A model generated the notes under the pieces. The model ran no database searches and had not been told where the DNA came from. It saw only the letters and a program-made list of their open reading frames with translations. A program made the translations under genes and the position numbers. Shown here piece after piece: positions 5,200 through 54,331 of a stretch of 64,000 nucleotides of DNA; positions within the stretch are counted from its first letter, which is position 1; every line of letters begins with the position of its first letter. The stretch lies in the IMG/VR virus record IMGVR_UViG_3300025640_001000. One strand, 5' to 3'. This DNA comes from a virus (lineage: Duplodnaviria; Caudoviricetes).

Positions 5200-5310
5200 A
5201 TGGATATTATATTATTGTATATCGTTGTGGGTATGTTTGCGGAACACTTTCTTGGTATCGCAGGTAAAATTACAGAAGTAACTTACAACTACATCAAAAG
5301 AAAATTATAA
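5200..5310 (+). CDS. Small membrane protein, 36 aa (MDIILLYIVVGMFAEHFLGIAGKITEVTYNYIKRKL)
   Basis: AGGAG SD upstream; hydrophobic N-terminus resembling the previous ORF. Confidence 0.6.
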   Translation: MDIILLYIVVGMFAEHFLGIAGKITEVTYNYIKRKL

Positions 5311-5317
5311 AAACCAC

Positions 5318-5350
5318 TTGACATTTTCAGAACAATATACTATATTTATA
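5318..5350 (+). promoter_or_regulatory. Sigma70-type promoter for tmRNA, overlapping the TATTTATA motif
   Basis: TTGACA(5318)-17 nt-TATATT(5341); TATTTATA at 5343-5350. Confidence 0.65.
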
Positions 5351-5384: not shown

Positions 5385-5793
5385 GGGGGTATTCTGGATT
5401 CGATTTGTATTTAGATATCCAAACTGCACGTGAAGGATAATACACGGCCTTCTCAAAATGTATTAAATTGTTTAAATGGCGAAGATACATTCGTTGCAGA
5501 CCTTCTCGCAGACGCAGAAGCAGAATTCTCTGCTTTAGAAGAAGCGGAAGCTGTGTTGGTGGCATAAATAAGCCCACCCCGTCACCCAAATGATCACACG
5601 ACTAGTTTGGTGTTGGCGTCAACAATCGTGGAACCAGAGATTGTTTTTTCGTTGGAAACTCTGTATAACAATAAAACGAATAGAAAAGGTAGACTTGTTT
5701 GTTGGGTAACTTTTTGAAATTTACGACAAAATAAACGTGTAGACGTTTGGAAAGAAGAATAGAAAGACGCGGGTTCGACTCCCGCTACCTCCA
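5385..5793 (+). ncRNA. ssrA: tmRNA (SsrA); predicted tag (A)GEDTFVADLLADAEAEFSALEEAEAVLVA at 5478-5567
   Basis: Acceptor stem GGGGGTA/TACCTCC with G3:U70 and discriminator A; 5' GGATTCGA; T-arm GCGGG-TTCGACT-CCCGC; helix 2 TCCAAAC..GCACGT / ACGTGT..GTTTGGA; PK1 GAAGG/CCTTC plus TAATACA/TGTATTA; TAAAT before the resume codon; CCA not encoded. Confidence 0.93.
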
Positions 5794-5898
5794 GAAGTCT
5801 TTTAATTTAATATTGGAAGATTACTGAAGGTAGTTGAAAAACTACTTCCAACAGAGATTTGATTTGACAAATTATAAAAACTATCATATTTATATTGT

Positions 5899-28089: not shown

Positions 28090-30615
28090 ATGATGGGAGA
28101 CCTTACACCAAGAGCACAACAAGCACTTGCTTTAAGCAAGCGAGTAGCAGTAGAAATGGAATCAACCTATGTAGGAACAGAACACCTACTTGTCGGTATT
28201 ATCACACTCGGTCAGGGTGTCGCAGTTAATGCCCTTCTTAGAATGGGAGTGGATTTTGTGTCAGTTCGTGCAGAAGTTGAAAAAGAATCAGCAAAAAACA
28301 AAAAGCAAAACAAAAAAAGTGATATTACTCATACACCTCGTTTGAAAAAAGTAATTGCACTTGCTGGAAAAGAAGCAAAGGAATTGAGTCATAGTTATGT
28401 TGGAACAGAGCATTTATTGCTCGGGTTACTTCGTGACAATGAAGGTATTGCATATAAAATTCTTAAAAACCTCGATATTGATTTAGAAACTTGCAGAAAA
28501 GAAATTCTTGCAGAAATTGATCCCAATTTTGAAGCAGACAACATGGAATCTGCGGTTGCAGGTGGTTCTGAAAAGTCATCTACTTCAAATTCTAAAACTC
28601 CTGCGTTAAAATCGTTTGGACGAGAATTGGTTGAACTTGCCAATGAAGGAAAAATTGATCCGGTTATTGGTAGAAAAGATGAAATCGCAAGAATGATTCA
28701 GATATTGTGCAGACGAACCAAAAATAATCCAATTCTTATTGGAGAAGCAGGTGTAGGAAAAACTGCAATCGTTGAAGGCCTTGCCCAAGAAATTGCGTTG
28801 GGTACCGTACCTGAAATGTTGTTAGACAAAAAAGTTTATATGCTTGATTTGGCAGCTATGGTTGCAGGAACAAAATATCGTGGTCAATTTGAAGAACGTA
28901 TCAAGTCGGTAATGAAAGAAGTTCAAGTTGCCGGAAACATTATTTTGTTTATTGATGAAATGCATACTATCGTAGGAGCAGGTGCAGCCGAAGGTTCTAT
29001 GGATGCATCTAATATCATTAAACCTGCGTTGAGCAGAGGAGAAATGCAATGTATTGGTGCTACCACAATGGAAGAGTATCGCAAGTATATTGAAAAGGAT
29101 AATGCTCTTGAAAGACGATTTCAACAAGTTCAAGTTGCTCCACCATCTGTTGATGATTCAATTTTAATTCTTCGTGGCATTCGTCACAAATATGAAGAAC
29201 ATCACAAAGTTGAATACTCCGATGAAGCACTTGTGTCTACGGTTAAATTAGCAGATAGATACATTACAGGTAGATTTCTTCCTGATAAAGCAATTGACAT
29301 TTTAGATGAAACTGGTTCACGTGTACGCATCGAATCTTTAAAGAAACCAAAAGAACTTGATCATCTTGAAACCAAGATTAAAGAATCTTGTATTGGTAAA
29401 GAAGAAGCAGTTTCAAAACAAGACTTTGAAAATGCGGCTGCTTGGAGAGACAAAGAAAGAAAACAAAAAGACAGACGAGACAAACTTCTTGATCGTTGGA
29501 AAAATACTCGCAAGGATGCTATTATTCCTGTGCAAGAAGACGATATATTGAAAGTTATATCTGCATGGACGGGAGTTCCTCTTAGTCGTATGGAAAAAAC
29601 CGAAGCACAACGATTGCTTGGATTGGAAAAACGATTACAAACAAAAGTTATTGGTCAAGATTATGCCGGAAACATTATTTCCAAGGCATTGCGTAGAAGT
29701 AGGGTTGATTTGAAAGACCCAAAACGACCCATTGGTTCATTTATGTTTCTAGGACCGACAGGTGTAGGTAAAACTTATTTGGCAAAGTGTTTAGCAGAAG
29801 ATATTTTCGGAAATCAAGATACCATTCTTCAGATTGATATGAGTGAGTATATGGAAAAACACTCGGTGTCTCGTTTGATTGGATCTCCTCCTGGATATGT
29901 TGGATATGAAGATGCGGGTCAATTAACCGAGGCAGTTAGACGAAATCCTTATTCGGTGGTGTTGTTTGACGAAATTGAAAAAGCACATCCTGATATTTGT
30001 CAGTTGTTGTTGCAAGTATTAGAAGAAGGACATCTTACCGACAACGTCGGAAGACGAATTGATTTCCGTAATACAATTGTTATTATGACTTCTAATGTAG
30101 GTGCAGAAATATTGCAAAGAAGTGTTTCGTTGGGATTTGGTGCAGGTCAAGATGTTGAAAATGATTACGAAAATACCAAAGCAAAAATCTTGGAAGAAGC
30201 AAAGAAAACATTTCGTCCTGAGTTTTTAAATCGTCTTGATGATCTCGTTATTTTCAGAAAATTGACAAAAGATCACATCACTCATATTGTTGATTTAGAA
30301 ATTGAAAAACTGCGTGAACGAGTTAAAGAAAAAGGATACGCAATCAGAATTTCCAAAGCAGTTAAAGAATTTCTTGTGGAAGAAGGATACGATGACAAAA
30401 TGGGTGCAAGGCCTTTACGTCGTGCAGTTGAACGATATTTAGAAGACACCTTGGCAGAATCAATTTTGCAAGAGGAAATAACAAGTGAAGGAAACAATCT
30501 ACTTGTTGCTAAAATCAAAGATAAAAAAGAAATCTATTTTGAAGCATCCTCAACTCCAACTCCAACTCCAATCAAAAAAGAAAACAAGGACACAAAAACC
30601 AACCAAAAGAAGTAG
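28090..30615 (+). CDS. clpC: ATP-dependent Clp protease ATP-binding subunit ClpC
   Basis: Two Clp-N repeats (YVGTEHLL), Walker A GEAGVGKT and [17 protein letters not shown] pore loop, UVR-type M domain, LGFG ClpP-docking loop. Confidence 0.93.
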
Positions 30616-52355: not shown

Positions 52356-52880
52356 ATGCAATCTATAAAACTTAAAGATTTGTTACCCGAAGGATTATTT
52401 GATAAACCATCTTTTGCAAGAACTGAACGAGTTCATGCGGAAATGAATAAAATTGATTCTAAAACAATTCTTCGTAAATACAAAGCAACAAATCAGAAAC
52501 TTCATAAAAAACCAAATGGATTTTGGTATGCATTTGGAAACGAGTGGACGGATTATGTAAATGGTGTAGGGGGTGGTTTTGAATCACAATACAATTGGTA
52601 TTACAAAGTAAATGTAAACGGTTGTAAAATGCGTGAGTTAAAATCTGAAAAAGACATCGTAGAATTTACAAAAGAATACACAGACTTTGACGGTACAGAT
52701 GAAACTTTATTTGCAACATTTTTTATTGATTGGAATTTGGTTGCAAAAGATTATGACGGAATAGAAGTATTTCCATTTCCCAAGAAAAATATGCCTGAAG
52801 CAAAGTGGTTAAAGTCATGGGATGTAAGTAGTGGTTGCGTTTGGAACACAAACAAGGTAAAATTAGAATTTGTGGGATAA
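52356..52880 (+). CDS. Hypothetical protein (KPxGxWY...DW...DYDGI...WDV pattern)
   Basis: TATTTATA upstream; N-terminal IKLKDLLPE. Confidence 0.6.
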   Translation: MQSIKLKDLLPEGLFDKPSFARTERVHAEMNKIDSKTILRKYKATNQKLHKKPNGFWYAFGNEWTDYVNGVGGGFESQYNWYYKVNVNGCKMRELKSEKDIVEFTKEYTDFDGTDETLFATFFIDWNLVAKDYDGIEVFPFPKKNMPEAKWLKSWDVSSGCVWNTNKVKLEFVG

Positions 52881-52885
52881 TTAAA

Positions 52886-54331
52886 ATGGCAATTATTAAA
52901 TTAAAAGATTTATTGATGGAGGGTGCGAAAGAAAAAGCAACATTAGACTTCCTTAAACAACTTATTAGAAAAAGTCCATACGAAGGAAAGGTATTTCTTG
53001 CAGGTGGAGCAGTTCGTGATGAACTCATGGGAATTGATGCAAATGATTTGGACTTTGTTATTAATCTTGAGGATGGAGGAGCAAAGTTTGCAGAATGGGC
53101 AACCAAGAAGATCGGTAACTATAAAAAAGGATCGAATCCTGTAACCTATGAAACATACGGAACTGCGAAGTTTAATTTAGTTGGAGTAGAACACAAAGGA
53201 TTTAAATTGGATGACATGGATATTGATTGTGTTATGCCACGTACTGAGGAATACGAAGAAGGAAGTCGTAAACCAAAAGTTGATTCGGGATCACTTAAAG
53301 ATGATGTAGATCGCCGAGATTTCACAACAAATAGTTTGCTTAAAAATTTAAGCACAGGTGAAATACTTGATTTAACAGGTATGGGAAAGCAAGATATCAA
53401 AGACGGTGTAGTAAGAACACCTCTTGATCCTAACGTAATTTTCTCGGAAGACCCACTTCGTATGCTTCGTGCGATTCGTTTTACAATGAAATACAATTGG
53501 AAGTTACCATTGTTTATGATCAAGGCACTTAAAAACAATGCGAGCAAACTCAAGCAAATAAGTGTAGAACGAGTTCAAGAAGAACTCAACAAAATGCTGA
53601 TGACCGATTCTCCTGATCGTGCAATCAAACTTCTGCAAATTACAGGACTCAGCAAATATGTTTTTCCTGAATTAGATCGTTTGATAAAACTTGAACAAAA
53701 CAAGTATCACAAAGAAGATGCAATGGAACATACTTTAAGTGTTGTTAAAGGCACTCCCAAGAACCTTGTAACTCGTTTAATGGCATTGTTCCATGATATT
53801 GGTAAAGAAGCAACCAAAGAAGTTATCGGCAAAGAAATTCATTTTTATGGTCACGAAAAAATTGGTGCGGAAATGACCGAAAAGATTTTAACAAGATTGA
53901 AATATCCTAACAAAATCATAGATGCAGTTGTAAAGGGTGTTGCAAATCATATGAAATTGAAACACGGAGGACCTGATTCGTTTGGAGCAACCGACAAAAC
54001 ACTTCGTAAATTCAAAGTAAATATGGGTGACCACCTTGAAGATGTTCTTAATTTAATACACGCAGATAATATTGCCCACGAAGCAGGATTTGATATGCCG
54101 AATCAAATTGATGCAATTCGCAAACGTCTTGATACACTTGGAATACCACAGGGCAAATTGAAACTTCCAATCAACGGAAAAGACATACTGAAAAAATATA
54201 AGTTGAAATCTGGTAGCATTATTGGTGACCTTCTTGCAATCGTAAAAGACGAATATTTGGAAAATCCAAAAGTAACTGCAAATAAGATTTATCCAAAACT
54301 TGAAAAGTATTTGAAAGATCATCCTCAGTAA
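52886..54331 (+). CDS. cca: Class II tRNA nucleotidyltransferase (CCA-adding) with HD domain
   Basis: AGGAVRD, DLD, RRDFTTN, EDPLRMLRAIRF, SVERVQEEL, LFHDIGK; start MAIIKLKDLLME. A poly(A)- or A-adding specificity is not excluded. Confidence 0.85.
   Translation: MAIIKLKDLLMEGAKEKATLDFLKQLIRKSPYEGKVFLAGGAVRDELMGIDANDLDFVINLEDGGAKFAEWATKKIGNYKKGSNPVTYETYGTAKFNLVGVEHKGFKLDDMDIDCVMPRTEEYEEGSRKPKVDSGSLKDDVDRRDFTTNSLLKNLSTGEILDLTGMGKQDIKDGVVRTPLDPNVIFSEDPLRMLRAIRFTMKYNWKLPLFMIKALKNNASKLKQISVERVQEELNKMLMTDSPDRAIKLLQITGLSKYVFPELDRLIKLEQNKYHKEDAMEHTLSVVKGTPKNLVTRLMALFHDIGKEATKEVIGKEIHFYGHEKIGAEMTEKILTRLKYPNKIIDAVVKGVANHMKLKHGGPDSFGATDKTLRKFKVNMGDHLEDVLNLIHADNIAHEAGFDMPNQIDAIRKRLDTLGIPQGKLKLPINGKDILKKYKLKSGSIIGDLLAIVKDEYLENPKVTANKIYPKLEKYLKDHPQ

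What the first reader, a model, noticed from the sequence alone, without database searches (positions are those of the whole stretch)
5385..5793. Phage tmRNA with a very long, acidic, Ala-rich tag
Seen: the tag frame 5478-5567 encodes 29 residues, GEDTFVADLLADAEAEFSALEEAEAVLVA (9 D/E, no K/R, 8 Ala), built partly from repeated GCAGA units, with the stop in a GGTGG/CCACC hairpin loop. Established: most bacterial tags are about 10 residues ending in a hydrophobic/Ala degron. Inference: the extended amphipathic acidic segment may add an adaptor or unfoldase-specific site, redirecting tagged proteins (for example to the phage ClpC) or changing their stability. The resume codon is inferred from TAAT-GGC-like context (TAAAT|GGC) just after PK1.
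Basis: partly seen in the sequence, partly recalled or inferred. Interest (0 to 1): 0.75.

Follow-up and report, generated by a model that had tools for sequence, protein, structure and literature searches.

The report
Megaphage tmRNA with 29-codon tag
A giant marine phage carries its own ribosome-rescue RNA (tmRNA) whose degradation tag really is 29 residues long and acidic, about three times longer than the tags of its probable host phylum, but phage tmRNAs and long tags are both already known, so this is an interesting member of a known kind and not a new system.

Summary
Observation confirmed. ARAGORN and Rfam RF00023 (122.8 bits, full length) place a one-piece tmRNA at 5385-5793.

Evidence: - All 43 related copies from marine metagenomes keep exactly 29 codons.
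- The 12 disputed upstream codons give pN/pS 0.11 in this frame only.
- GGC lies 12 nt after PK1, with U at -5 and A at -4.
- It sits at gene position 94, like 55 Verrucomicrobiota tmRNAs (93-106).
- ARAGORN itself calls the 29-residue tag in three relatives.

Compensatory changes support PK1, helix 5 (stop in its loop), later hairpins and the T-arm.

The phage ClpC is closest to Verrucomicrobiota, at 60-62% identity. Tags there are 8-20 residues, and 47 of 55 are 9-10.

Long tags are not unprecedented. ARAGORN gives 20-27 residues in Chlamydiota, up to 31 in a probable Omnitrophota group, and 25 acidic residues in mycobacteriophage Bxz1.

The "amphipathic" claim fails a hydrophobic-moment test. 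The "GCAGA repeats" are preferred Ala-Asp/Glu codons. Redirection to the phage ClpC is untested.

Earlier notes of this scan flagged the same stretch in an overlapping window of this genome.

Verdict: new member of a known kind, moderate interest.

The parts
5318..5346 (+). sigma-70-like promoter TTGACA-17 nt-TATATT, ending 38 nt before the mature 5' end
   Evidence: 11 of 12 consensus matches. TTGAC[AT]-N17-TATATT sits at the same distance (37-38 nt) in 35 of 50 related copies. Function is inferred.
5385..5793 (+). one-piece tmRNA gene (mature RNA up to discriminator A5793; no encoded CCA)
   Evidence: ARAGORN; Rfam RF00023 122.8 bits, full length; 27 distinct full-length relatives at 93% mean column identity.
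5385..5391 (+). acceptor stem 5' strand, pairing with 5786-5792; the third pair is G-U (alanine identity element)
   Evidence: Pairs 1-7 with 403-409 are invariant, and pair 3/407 is G-U in 27 of 27.
5432..5465 (+). pseudoknot PK1: stem 1 GAAGG 5432-5436 with CCTTC 5448-5452; stem 2 TAATACA 5438-5444 with TGTATTA 5459-5465
   Evidence: Stem 1 comes from RNAalifold. Stem 2 comes from the Rfam alignment, with a compensatory A-T to G-C change at columns 55/80 in 3 of 27.
5472..5477 (+). resume-codon determinant, positions -6 to -1 (TTAAAT: U at -5, A at -4)
   Evidence: Columns 84-99 and 101-103 are invariant in all 27 distinct sequences, and column 100 varies in one. The same TAAAT|G context is seen in many Verrucomicrobiota tmRNAs. 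The role of -6..+1, U-5 and -4 is from PMC3929946.
5478..5567 (+). tag reading frame: 29 codons GGC..GCA (5478-5564) plus TAA (5565-5567)
   Evidence: Intact and exactly 29 codons in 43 of 43 related copies. pN/pS is 0.11 for codons 1-12 and 0.38 for codons 13-29 in this frame, and 0.8-3 or undefined (no synonymous differences) in the other frames. Rfam aligns the consensus resume codon here. ARAGORN calls this start in L016-L018.
5558..5578 (+). helix 5 hairpin with the stop codon in its loop
   Evidence: Six pairs. Pair 175/193 is A-U in 15 and G-C in 12 of 27, a compensatory change that also changes residue 28 between Val and Met.
5769..5785 (+). T-arm of the tRNA-like domain
   Evidence: GCGGG..CCCGC. 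Pair 387/401 is C-G in 18 and U-A in 9 of 27. Rfam alignment.
52835..54331 (+). CCA-adding tRNA nucleotidyltransferase; it could complete the CCA-less tmRNA (inference)
   Evidence: PF01743, PF12627, HD, PF13735; phrog_2244 tRNA nucleotidyltransferase, 1.1e-55.
28090..30615 (+). ClpC-type AAA+ unfoldase; a candidate reader of the tag only by speculation
   Evidence: Clp_N x2, AAA, AAA_lid_9, UVR, AAA_2, ClpB_D2-small. SLGFGAG loop at residue 681. Best bacterial relatives are Verrucomicrobiota at 60-62% identity.

Best explanation
This is a functional, phage-encoded one-piece tmRNA that works by ordinary trans-translation. It is transcribed from its own sigma-70-like promoter and trimmed at both ends. 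In this strain, which lacks an encoded CCA, it is completed by a CCA-adding enzyme, either the phage's own or the host's. Host AlaRS charges it with alanine through the G3-U70 pair. It then enters stalled ribosomes with SmpB. Translation resumes at GGC 5478 and adds Ala plus 29 encoded residues (GEDTFVADLLADAEAEFSALEEAEAVLVA), stopping at UAA in the loop of helix 5. The hydrophobic C-terminus (VLVA or VLMA) most likely serves as the degron for a host AAA+ protease of the ClpXP type. The strongly conserved first dozen residues suggest a second selected recognition site for an adaptor or another unfoldase, whose identity is unknown. Shown here: the gene, its structure, its conservation, the reading frame and the likely resume point. 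Inferred: processing, charging, the SmpB partner, and the fate of tagged proteins.
For: Gene identity: ARAGORN and Rfam at 122.8 bits over the full model. Selection on the RNA structure: 27 distinct relatives have 16 of 95 predicted pairs with compensatory double changes, in helix 5, the PK2/PK3/PK4 hairpins and the T-arm, and in PK1 stem 2. G-U at the third acceptor pair is present in 27 of 27. Frame and length: 43 of 43 copies keep 29 codons. In codons 1-12, 6 of 9 variable sites are third positions and all 6 are synonymous; pN/pS is 0.11 against about 3 or undefined in the other frames. Frame +1 loses its stop in some variants (read from the sequences). Resume point: Rfam aligns the consensus GCa to GGC. 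GGC lies 12 nt after PK1, with U-5/A-4, matching the literature rule of about 10 nt and -6..+1 (PMC3929946). ARAGORN puts the resume codon at gene positions 93-99 in 54 of 55 Verrucomicrobiota tmRNAs (one at 106), and the phage GGC is at position 94. Two verrucomicrobial tmRNAs start taaat|GGCGAACAA and taatt|GGCGAAGAA, against the phage's taaat|GGCGAAGAT. ARAGORN calls the 29-residue tag in L016-L018. Phage context: all large ORFs lie on one strand and the window is about 35% GC. It encodes a T4-type clamp-loader A subunit, a dNMP kinase and a CCA enzyme. Relatives lie on contigs up to 566 kb. The 5' 19-mer is absent from 185,579 species genomes but present in 37 marine metagenome contigs.
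Against: There is no experimental evidence for expression, charging or tagging. ARAGORN's default call for the window starts at 5514 and gives 17 residues. The third-position excess in codons 1-12 is modest on its own (P about 0.04), and the sequences are closely related, so events are few. No smpB was looked for outside this 64-kb window because the rest of the genome is not held. The host is unknown, and the similarity of the tmRNA to any bacterial tmRNA is weak (at most 48 bits with nhmmer). Nothing links the tag to a particular protease.
Confidence: 0.8

Rival explanations
1. The tag is shorter. Translation resumes downstream at GCA 5514, as ARAGORN calls for the window, giving AEAEFSALEEAEAVLVA (17 residues). 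The 36 nt before it would then be untranslated spacer.
For: ARAGORN's default output for the window and for most relatives. GCA (Ala) is the commonest resume codon.
Against: This start lies 48 nt after PK1 and has C at -5, not U. The supposed spacer shows coding-type substitutions: pN/pS 0.11, with 6 of 9 variable sites synonymous third positions. Rfam aligns the resume codon to 5478. ARAGORN switches to position 94 in L016-L018. In ARAGORN's calls for Verrucomicrobiota, all but one of 55 tmRNAs resume at positions 93-99 (one at 106).
Confidence: 0.07
2. The long acidic tag is simply inherited from a host lineage whose own tags are long (a Chlamydiota-like or Omnitrophota-like host). It would then say nothing about phage-specific redirection.
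For: ARAGORN tags of 20-27 residues in 26 of 31 sampled Chlamydiota tmRNAs. Tags of up to 29-31 residues in the phylum-level group reached from L076, many of them acidic and Ala-rich (ANYNPVAEAEEILASEALAVA). One of these (L244) aligns to the phage tag better than shuffles (p about 0.006, one of nine uncorrected tests).
Against: The phage ClpC is closest to Verrucomicrobiota (60-62% identity against 55% or less for others). The nearest bacterial Ald homologues with a source-given name include Verrucomicrobiota and Lentisphaerales. The six best nhmmer hits of the phage tmRNA profile are verrucomicrobial, though weak. The resume context matches Opitutales-type GGCGAA starts. Verrucomicrobiota tags are 8-20 residues, mostly 9-10.
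Confidence: 0.2
3. The RNA is a decoy and not a tagging tmRNA. It would titrate host SmpB or block host trans-translation, as proposed for the TLD-only tmRNA of mycobacteriophage DS6A.
For: Phage TLD-only molecules exist and can inhibit tmRNA (PMC4131195). Ten of 33 copies lack an encoded CCA.
Against: The full mRNA-like domain, the four pseudoknot regions and a 29-codon frame are kept under purifying selection in every copy. A CCA-adding enzyme is encoded in the window.
Confidence: 0.05
4. The gene belongs to a bacterium and not a phage. The contig would be a piece of a small or unusual bacterial genome, and the tmRNA its housekeeping copy.
For: One related contig was deposited in a MAG labelled Flavobacteriaceae TMED42. 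The window holds no capsid or terminase gene that I identified.
Against: The window encodes a T4-type clamp loader, a dNMP kinase and PHROG-matching large proteins. It has single-strand gene order. The 19-mer has no hit in 185,579 species genomes. The tmRNA matches sampled bacterial tmRNAs only weakly. Bacteroidota tags sampled are 9-10 residues. Earlier AI notes of this scan, unchecked by me, call it a megaphage.
Confidence: 0.05

Closest known systems
Bacterial one-piece tmRNA (SsrA, Rfam RF00023), for example the Verrucomicrobiota tmRNAs sampled here
   Same: A full-length match to the model: acceptor stem with G3-U70, PK1, a resume context with U-5/A-4, the stop codon in the helix 5 loop, downstream pseudoknot hairpins and a T-arm. 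The tag ends in hydrophobic and Ala residues. The resume codon is at the same gene position (94).
   Different: It is encoded by a phage-like genome. The gene is 409 nt, against about 345-363 nt for most sampled Verrucomicrobiota. The tag has 29 residues against mostly 9-10. The ending is VLVA/VLMA and not LAA. This strain has no encoded CCA. Sequence similarity to any sampled bacterial tmRNA is weak (48 bits or less with nhmmer).
Mycobacteriophage Bxz1 (cluster C1) tmRNA
   Same: Phage-encoded. It has a long, acidic, Ala-rich tag without K/R (ATDTDATVTDAEIEAFFAEEAAALV, 25 residues). From my own recollection this is much longer than the host tag; one search shows only that the M. tuberculosis tag ends in LAA.
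   Different: Unrelated phage and host phylum. The tag similarity is compositional, not positional (shuffle p about 0.15). Bxz1's tmRNA sits in a tRNA cluster, whereas the megaphage tmRNA stands alone next to ald.
Bacillus phage G and huge-phage tmRNAs (Al-Shayeb et al. 2020; Mar_Mega_1)
   Same: Very large phages that carry one tmRNA among other translation genes (PMC7162821, PMC9723777, PMC12484599).
   Different: The phage G tag is ordinary in length (AKLNITNNELQVA, 13 residues). The tag sequences of Mar_Mega_1 and of the huge phages could not be compared, because their records are not held.
Long SsrA tags of Chlamydiota and of Mollicutes
   Same: Tags of 20-27 residues with an acidic middle and a hydrophobic/Ala C-terminus (for example AEPKAECEIISFADLEDLRVAA). 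From my own knowledge, Mycoplasma tags are about 27 residues and are read by Lon and not ClpXP. That shows that tag lengthening can go with a change of protease.
   Different: No sequence relationship was detected (shuffle p 0.2-0.4). Those tags are host-encoded. The protease that reads the megaphage tag is unknown.

Membership tests
tmRNA (RF00023, one-piece) | Covariance-model match above the gathering score over the whole model | tested here: met
   122.8 bits against a cut-off of 47, model positions 1-374 of 374, E 1.7e-47. ARAGORN tmRNA call.
tmRNA (RF00023, one-piece) | tRNA-like domain: 7-bp acceptor stem with G3-U70, T-arm, discriminator A and a 3' CCA | tested here: met
   Acceptor pairs are invariant and 3/407 is G-U in 27 of 27. 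The T-arm has a compensatory C-G/U-A pair. CCA is encoded in 23 of 33 relatives but not in the window, which needs CCA addition. A CCA enzyme is present.
tmRNA (RF00023, one-piece) | PK1 followed after about 10 nt by a resume codon with a conserved -6..+1 context | tested here: met
   PK1 is at 5432-5465 with a compensatory pair. There are 12 nt to GGC 5478. U-5/A-4 are present and the context is invariant in the relatives. The rule is from PMC3929946.
tmRNA (RF00023, one-piece) | Short open frame ending in hydrophobic/Ala residues, with its stop in or near helix 5 | tested here: met
   29 codons ending VLVA, TAA in the helix 5 loop, frame conserved in 43 of 43.
tmRNA (RF00023, one-piece) | Alanylation, SmpB binding and tagging activity | not testable with these tools
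   Needs biochemistry or mass spectrometry. smpB could not be sought in the rest of the genome.
Phage-encoded tmRNA | The gene lies within a phage genome and not in host DNA flanking a prophage | tested here: inconclusive
   Phage-type replication genes are in the window. Synteny with ald and sulfotransferase genes is kept on contigs of 120-566 kb. The 19-mer is absent from 185,579 species genomes. No capsid, portal or terminase gene was identified by me in this window.
ClpX/SspB-type SsrA degron | C-terminal LAA-like motif read by ClpX plus an upstream adaptor site | not testable with these tools
   The C-terminus is VLVA/VLMA. The conserved residues 1-12 (pN/pS 0.11) are compatible with a second site, but no binding test was possible. 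The tag is under the 30-residue limit of the complex predictor.

The most novel reading that the evidence does not exclude
Large phages that carry their own tmRNA may repeatedly evolve tags that are much longer and more acidic than their hosts'. Examples are this marine megaphage clade (29 residues against mostly 9-10 in Verrucomicrobiota), mycobacteriophage Bxz1 (25 residues) and several IMG/VR contigs (21-25 residues). The purpose would be to give rescued polypeptides a different fate during infection, for example handing them to a phage-encoded unfoldase such as the ClpC here, or keeping them away from host ClpXP and its adaptors. The tightly conserved first 12 residues would be the phage-specific recognition site.
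Probability: 0.15. Interest if true: 0.7.

Novelty: new member of a known kind. Interest (0 to 1): 0.38.

Why it matters
Phage-encoded tmRNAs have been listed in genome surveys but hardly studied, and automatic tag calls for them are unreliable: here ARAGORN gives two different tags for near-identical genes. This clade is abundant in marine metagenomes (TARA, Saanich Inlet and other marine samples). It offers a well-sampled natural alignment that fixes the reading frame, and it shows a tag about three times the length of those in the probable host phylum. If tag length reflects a change of protease or adaptor, as happened in Mycoplasma, this would be a tractable case of a virus re-wiring host protein quality control. 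If not, it is simply a well-documented long tag. The result also gives a cautionary example for tmRNA annotation pipelines.

Tried and rejected
1. BLASTN of the tmRNA against 50,697 GenBank phage records gave no match. The 5' 19-mer has no hit in IMG/VR or in 185,579 species genomes.

2. Mar_Mega_1 (OU342829) is not in the held phage collection, so I could not test whether the window is that phage. Its supplementary annotation lists Clp and CCA enzymes but no alanine dehydrogenase.

Presence of smpB or clpP in the genome is therefore untested.

4. TRF found no tandem repeat in the gene, so the idea of a repeat-built tag is dropped.

5. The hydrophobic-moment test did not support an amphipathic helix.

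6. Smith-Waterman scores with shuffles against the Bxz1, Chlamydiota, IMG/VR and Verrucomicrobiota tags showed only compositional similarity. One Omnitrophota-like tag scored p about 0.006, uncorrected for nine tests.

7. nhmmer with the phage tmRNA profile against about 140 bacterial tmRNAs gave at most 48 bits, too weak to name a donor lineage.

8. RNAalifold predicted some helices inside the tag frame. I do not regard these as real, since their pairs are mostly invariant or broken.

9. My hand-guessed register for helix 2 was off and is not used.

10. No complex prediction was run. The tag is shorter than the 30-residue minimum, and the tool's recall for such pairs is low.

Full report
**1. 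What is there**

ARAGORN finds one RNA gene in the window, a tmRNA at 5385-5793 on the + strand. Rfam's tmRNA model RF00023 matches 5385-5796 over its whole length at 122.8 bits, against a gathering score of 47 (E 1.7e-47). It runs from GGC at 5478 through 29 codons to TAA at 5565-5567 and reads GEDTFVADLLADAEAEFSALEEAEAVLVA. That is nine acidic residues, no basic ones and eight alanines. ARAGORN's own call for this window differs: it starts at gene position 130 (window 5514) and gives AEAEFSALEEAEAVLVA. The main question was which start is right.

**2. Context**

- All large ORFs lie on the + strand, and GC is about 30-39%.
- The tmRNA's neighbours are sulfotransferases, an FkbM methyltransferase and an alanine dehydrogenase 105 nt downstream.
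- Further along are a T4-type clamp-loader A subunit, a dNMP kinase, a CCA-adding enzyme, an exonuclease, a subtilase, large adhesin-like proteins and a full ClpC-type ATPase at 28090-30615.
- No whole genome is held for the window.
- Earlier unchecked notes of this scan call it a marine megaphage, and they had already flagged the same tag in an overlapping window of the same genome.
- A sigma-70-like promoter, TTGACA-17-TATATT, ends 38 nt before the tmRNA 5' end. It recurs at the same distance in 35 of 50 related copies.

**3. Relatives**

The tmRNA has no match in GenBank phages. Its first 19 nt occur neither in IMG/VR nor in one genome each of 185,579 prokaryote species. They do occur in 37 marine metagenome contigs.

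Independently, the neighbouring alanine dehydrogenase has about 70 clusters at 81-97% identity, on contigs up to 566 kb. Fetching several of these showed the tmRNA in the same place upstream of ald.

In all I obtained 43 copies covering the tag region, with 25 distinct tag DNAs, and 27 distinct full-length tmRNAs at 93% mean column identity.

**4. The RNA is under selection as a tmRNA**

- On the 27 sequences, RNAalifold finds 95 pairs, 16 of them with compensatory double changes.
- These include helix 5 (pair 175/193: A-U in 15, G-C in 12), the hairpins of the downstream pseudoknot regions, and the T-arm (C-G in 18, U-A in 9).
- PK1 stem 2 has an A-T to G-C swap in three sequences.
- The third acceptor pair is G-U in all 27, which is the alanine identity element.

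**5. Which resume codon**

Six lines of evidence favour GGC 5478.

- All 43 copies keep an open frame of exactly 29 codons from GGC to TAA.
- The frame one base later loses its stop in variants carrying ATG at codon 20 (read).
- The 12 codons that ARAGORN leaves out have 9 variable sites. Six are third positions and all six are synonymous; the three replacements are D3N, T4K and L10I. Pairwise pN/pS there is 0.11 in this frame, against about 3 or undefined in the other two. For codons 13-29 it is 0.38. So the disputed stretch looks more strongly protein-constrained than the undisputed part. The positional excess alone is only P about 0.04, and the sequences are close relatives, so this evidence is supportive and not overwhelming.
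- Rfam aligns the consensus resume codon to GGC.
- GGC lies 12 nt after PK1 (5432-5465), with U at -5 and A at -4, and the region around the resume codon (-10 to +10) is invariant but for one site in one of the 27 sequences. The literature places the start about 10 nt after PK1 and gives positions -6 to +1, U-5 and -4 the determining role (PMC3929946). The ARAGORN start would lie 48 nt after PK1 with C at -5.
- ARAGORN puts the resume codon at gene positions 93-99 in 54 of 55 Verrucomicrobiota tmRNAs, and at 106 in one. The phage GGC is at position 94. Two of those tmRNAs begin taaat|GGCGAACAA and taatt|GGCGAAGAA, very like the phage's taaat|GGCGAAGAT. ARAGORN itself reports the 29-residue tag at position 94 for three relatives.

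I put the 29-codon reading at roughly 0.85-0.9.

**6. Is the tag unusual?**

*Against the probable host lineage: yes.*

- The phage ClpC's best bacterial relatives are a block of twelve loci at 60-62% identity, ten of them labelled Verrucomicrobiota (Opitutales, Akkermansia, Lacunisphaera, Chthoniobacterales); everything else is at 55% or below.
- The bacterial Ald relatives that carry a name, at about 59-65% identity, include Verrucomicrobiota and Lentisphaerales.
- The six best nhmmer hits of the phage tmRNA profile are verrucomicrobial, but weak (48 bits or less).
- I sampled 101 genomes of that phylum, of which 93 had a tmRNA, and read 55 tags, deliberately including all the longest genes. 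Tags run from 8 to 20 residues, and 47 of 55 have 9 or 10, typically ANEELALAA.
- A Bacteroidota-phylum sample gave only 9-10 residues.

*Against bacteria at large: not unprecedented.*

- Chlamydiota tags are mostly 20-27 residues.
- The phylum-level group reached from locus L076 is probably Omnitrophota, judging by similar tags in genomes labelled so. It has tags up to 29-31 residues, many of them acidic and Ala-rich (ANYNPVAEAEEILASEALAVA).

*Among phages:*

- Bacillus phage G has a 13-residue tag.
- Mycobacteriophage Bxz1 has ATDTDATVTDAEIEAFFAEEAAALV: 25 residues, eight acidic, none basic.
- Of 30 tmRNAs found on 80 IMG/VR loci, six have tags of 20 or more residues, though some of these contigs are prophages with host flanks.

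The resemblance between the megaphage and Bxz1 tags is compositional. After shuffling, the alignment score is not exceptional (p about 0.15).

**7.

- The 'amphipathic' segment is not supported. The best 18-residue helical hydrophobic moment is 0.26, against 0.25 +/- 0.07 for shuffles.
- The 'GCAGA units' are there (5496, 5508, 5514, 5520). But TRF sees no tandem repeat, and GCAGA is over-represented 2.5-fold across the whole window. They are simply preferred Ala-Asp/Glu codon pairs.
- The idea that the tag directs proteins to the phage ClpC rests only on both genes being in the same genome, 22 kb apart. The ClpC does have a ClpP-docking-type LGF loop.
- One thing the data do show: residues 1-12 are the most conserved part of the tag at protein level. 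That is what one would expect if a second recognition site existed, analogous to the SspB site in the E. coli tag. This is inference.

**8. Mechanism proposed**

Transcription starts from the gene's own promoter. RNase P and 3' trimming follow. CCA is added where it is not encoded: the window and 10 of 33 copies lack it and 23 of 33 encode it, and a CCA enzyme is confirmed at 52835-54331. AlaRS alanylates the RNA through G3-U70. It enters stalled ribosomes with SmpB, whose source is unknown. Translation resumes at GGC, Ala plus 29 residues are added, and translation terminates at UAA in helix 5. An AAA+ protease then recognises the VLVA/VLMA end. Every step after the gene anatomy is inferred from the family's established biology.

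**9. Verdict**

This is a genuine, well-conserved, phage-borne tmRNA with a genuine 29-codon acidic tag. It is a new member of a known kind. Phage tmRNAs are documented (PMC4131195, PMC7162821, PMC9723777), and long tags are documented in several lineages.

The contrast with the probable host phylum, and the parallel with Bxz1, leave open a more interesting reading: that phages lengthen tags to change the fate of rescued proteins. I rate that at about 0.15.

Noticed in passing
window 5787-5800; alignment A1: The window's tmRNA ends ...ACCTCCA followed by GAAG, with no encoded CCA, as do 10 of 33 full-length relatives. The other 23 encode ACCTCCACCA. The clade is therefore polymorphic for a templated CCA, which fits with the phage carrying its own CCA-adding enzyme (52835-54331).
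   Followed up: partly
L296:1501-1935 (Mycobacterium phage Bxz1, AY129337 100059-100495): Bxz1's tmRNA encodes a 25-residue acidic, Ala-rich tag without basic residues (ATDTDATVTDAEIEAFFAEEAAALV). It is compositionally similar to the megaphage tag, but not in residue order. This could be convergence among phage tmRNAs.
   Followed up: partly
L197, L231-L258 (genomes of the phylum-level group reached from L076); L290-L292: A bacterial group with small genomes, probably Omnitrophota, has unusually long ARAGORN tags (20-31 residues). There are two recurring types: ANYNPVAEAEEILASEALAVA-like and AD/EKLSWNERAVGP...PLAA-like. ARAGORN's calls were not checked comparatively.
   Followed up: no
window 28090-30615: The phage ClpC's twelve best hits among species genomes are at 60-62% identity, ten of them labelled Verrucomicrobiota and two Bifidobacterium-type MAGs, against 55% or less for all other phyla. 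This gives a host or donor signal for this megaphage clade. The protein has an SLGFGAG ClpP-docking-type loop at residue 681.
   Followed up: partly
window 5318-5346 and 5859-5887: Both the tmRNA and the downstream ald gene are preceded by TTGA(C/T)-type -35 boxes, a 17-nt spacer and a TAT-rich -10 embedded in a TATATTTAT/CATATTTAT motif. The tmRNA promoter is conserved in relatives.
   Followed up: partly
L014 (TARA scaffold_1051, 36.8 kb; deposited as Flavobacteriaceae bacterium TMED42): In this relative, ald (89% identical) follows a LicD/cytidylyltransferase pair directly, and no tmRNA lies in the 2 kb fetched upstream. The tmRNA-ald linkage is therefore not universal in the clade. The MAG label is probably a binning error.
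   Followed up: no
window 5200-5310: A 36-codon ORF (MDIILLYIVVGMFAEHFLGIAGKITEVTYNYIKRKL) lies just upstream of the tmRNA promoter. Gene callers also report a 36-residue ORF at the corresponding place in several relatives. It may be a small membrane protein.
   Followed up: no
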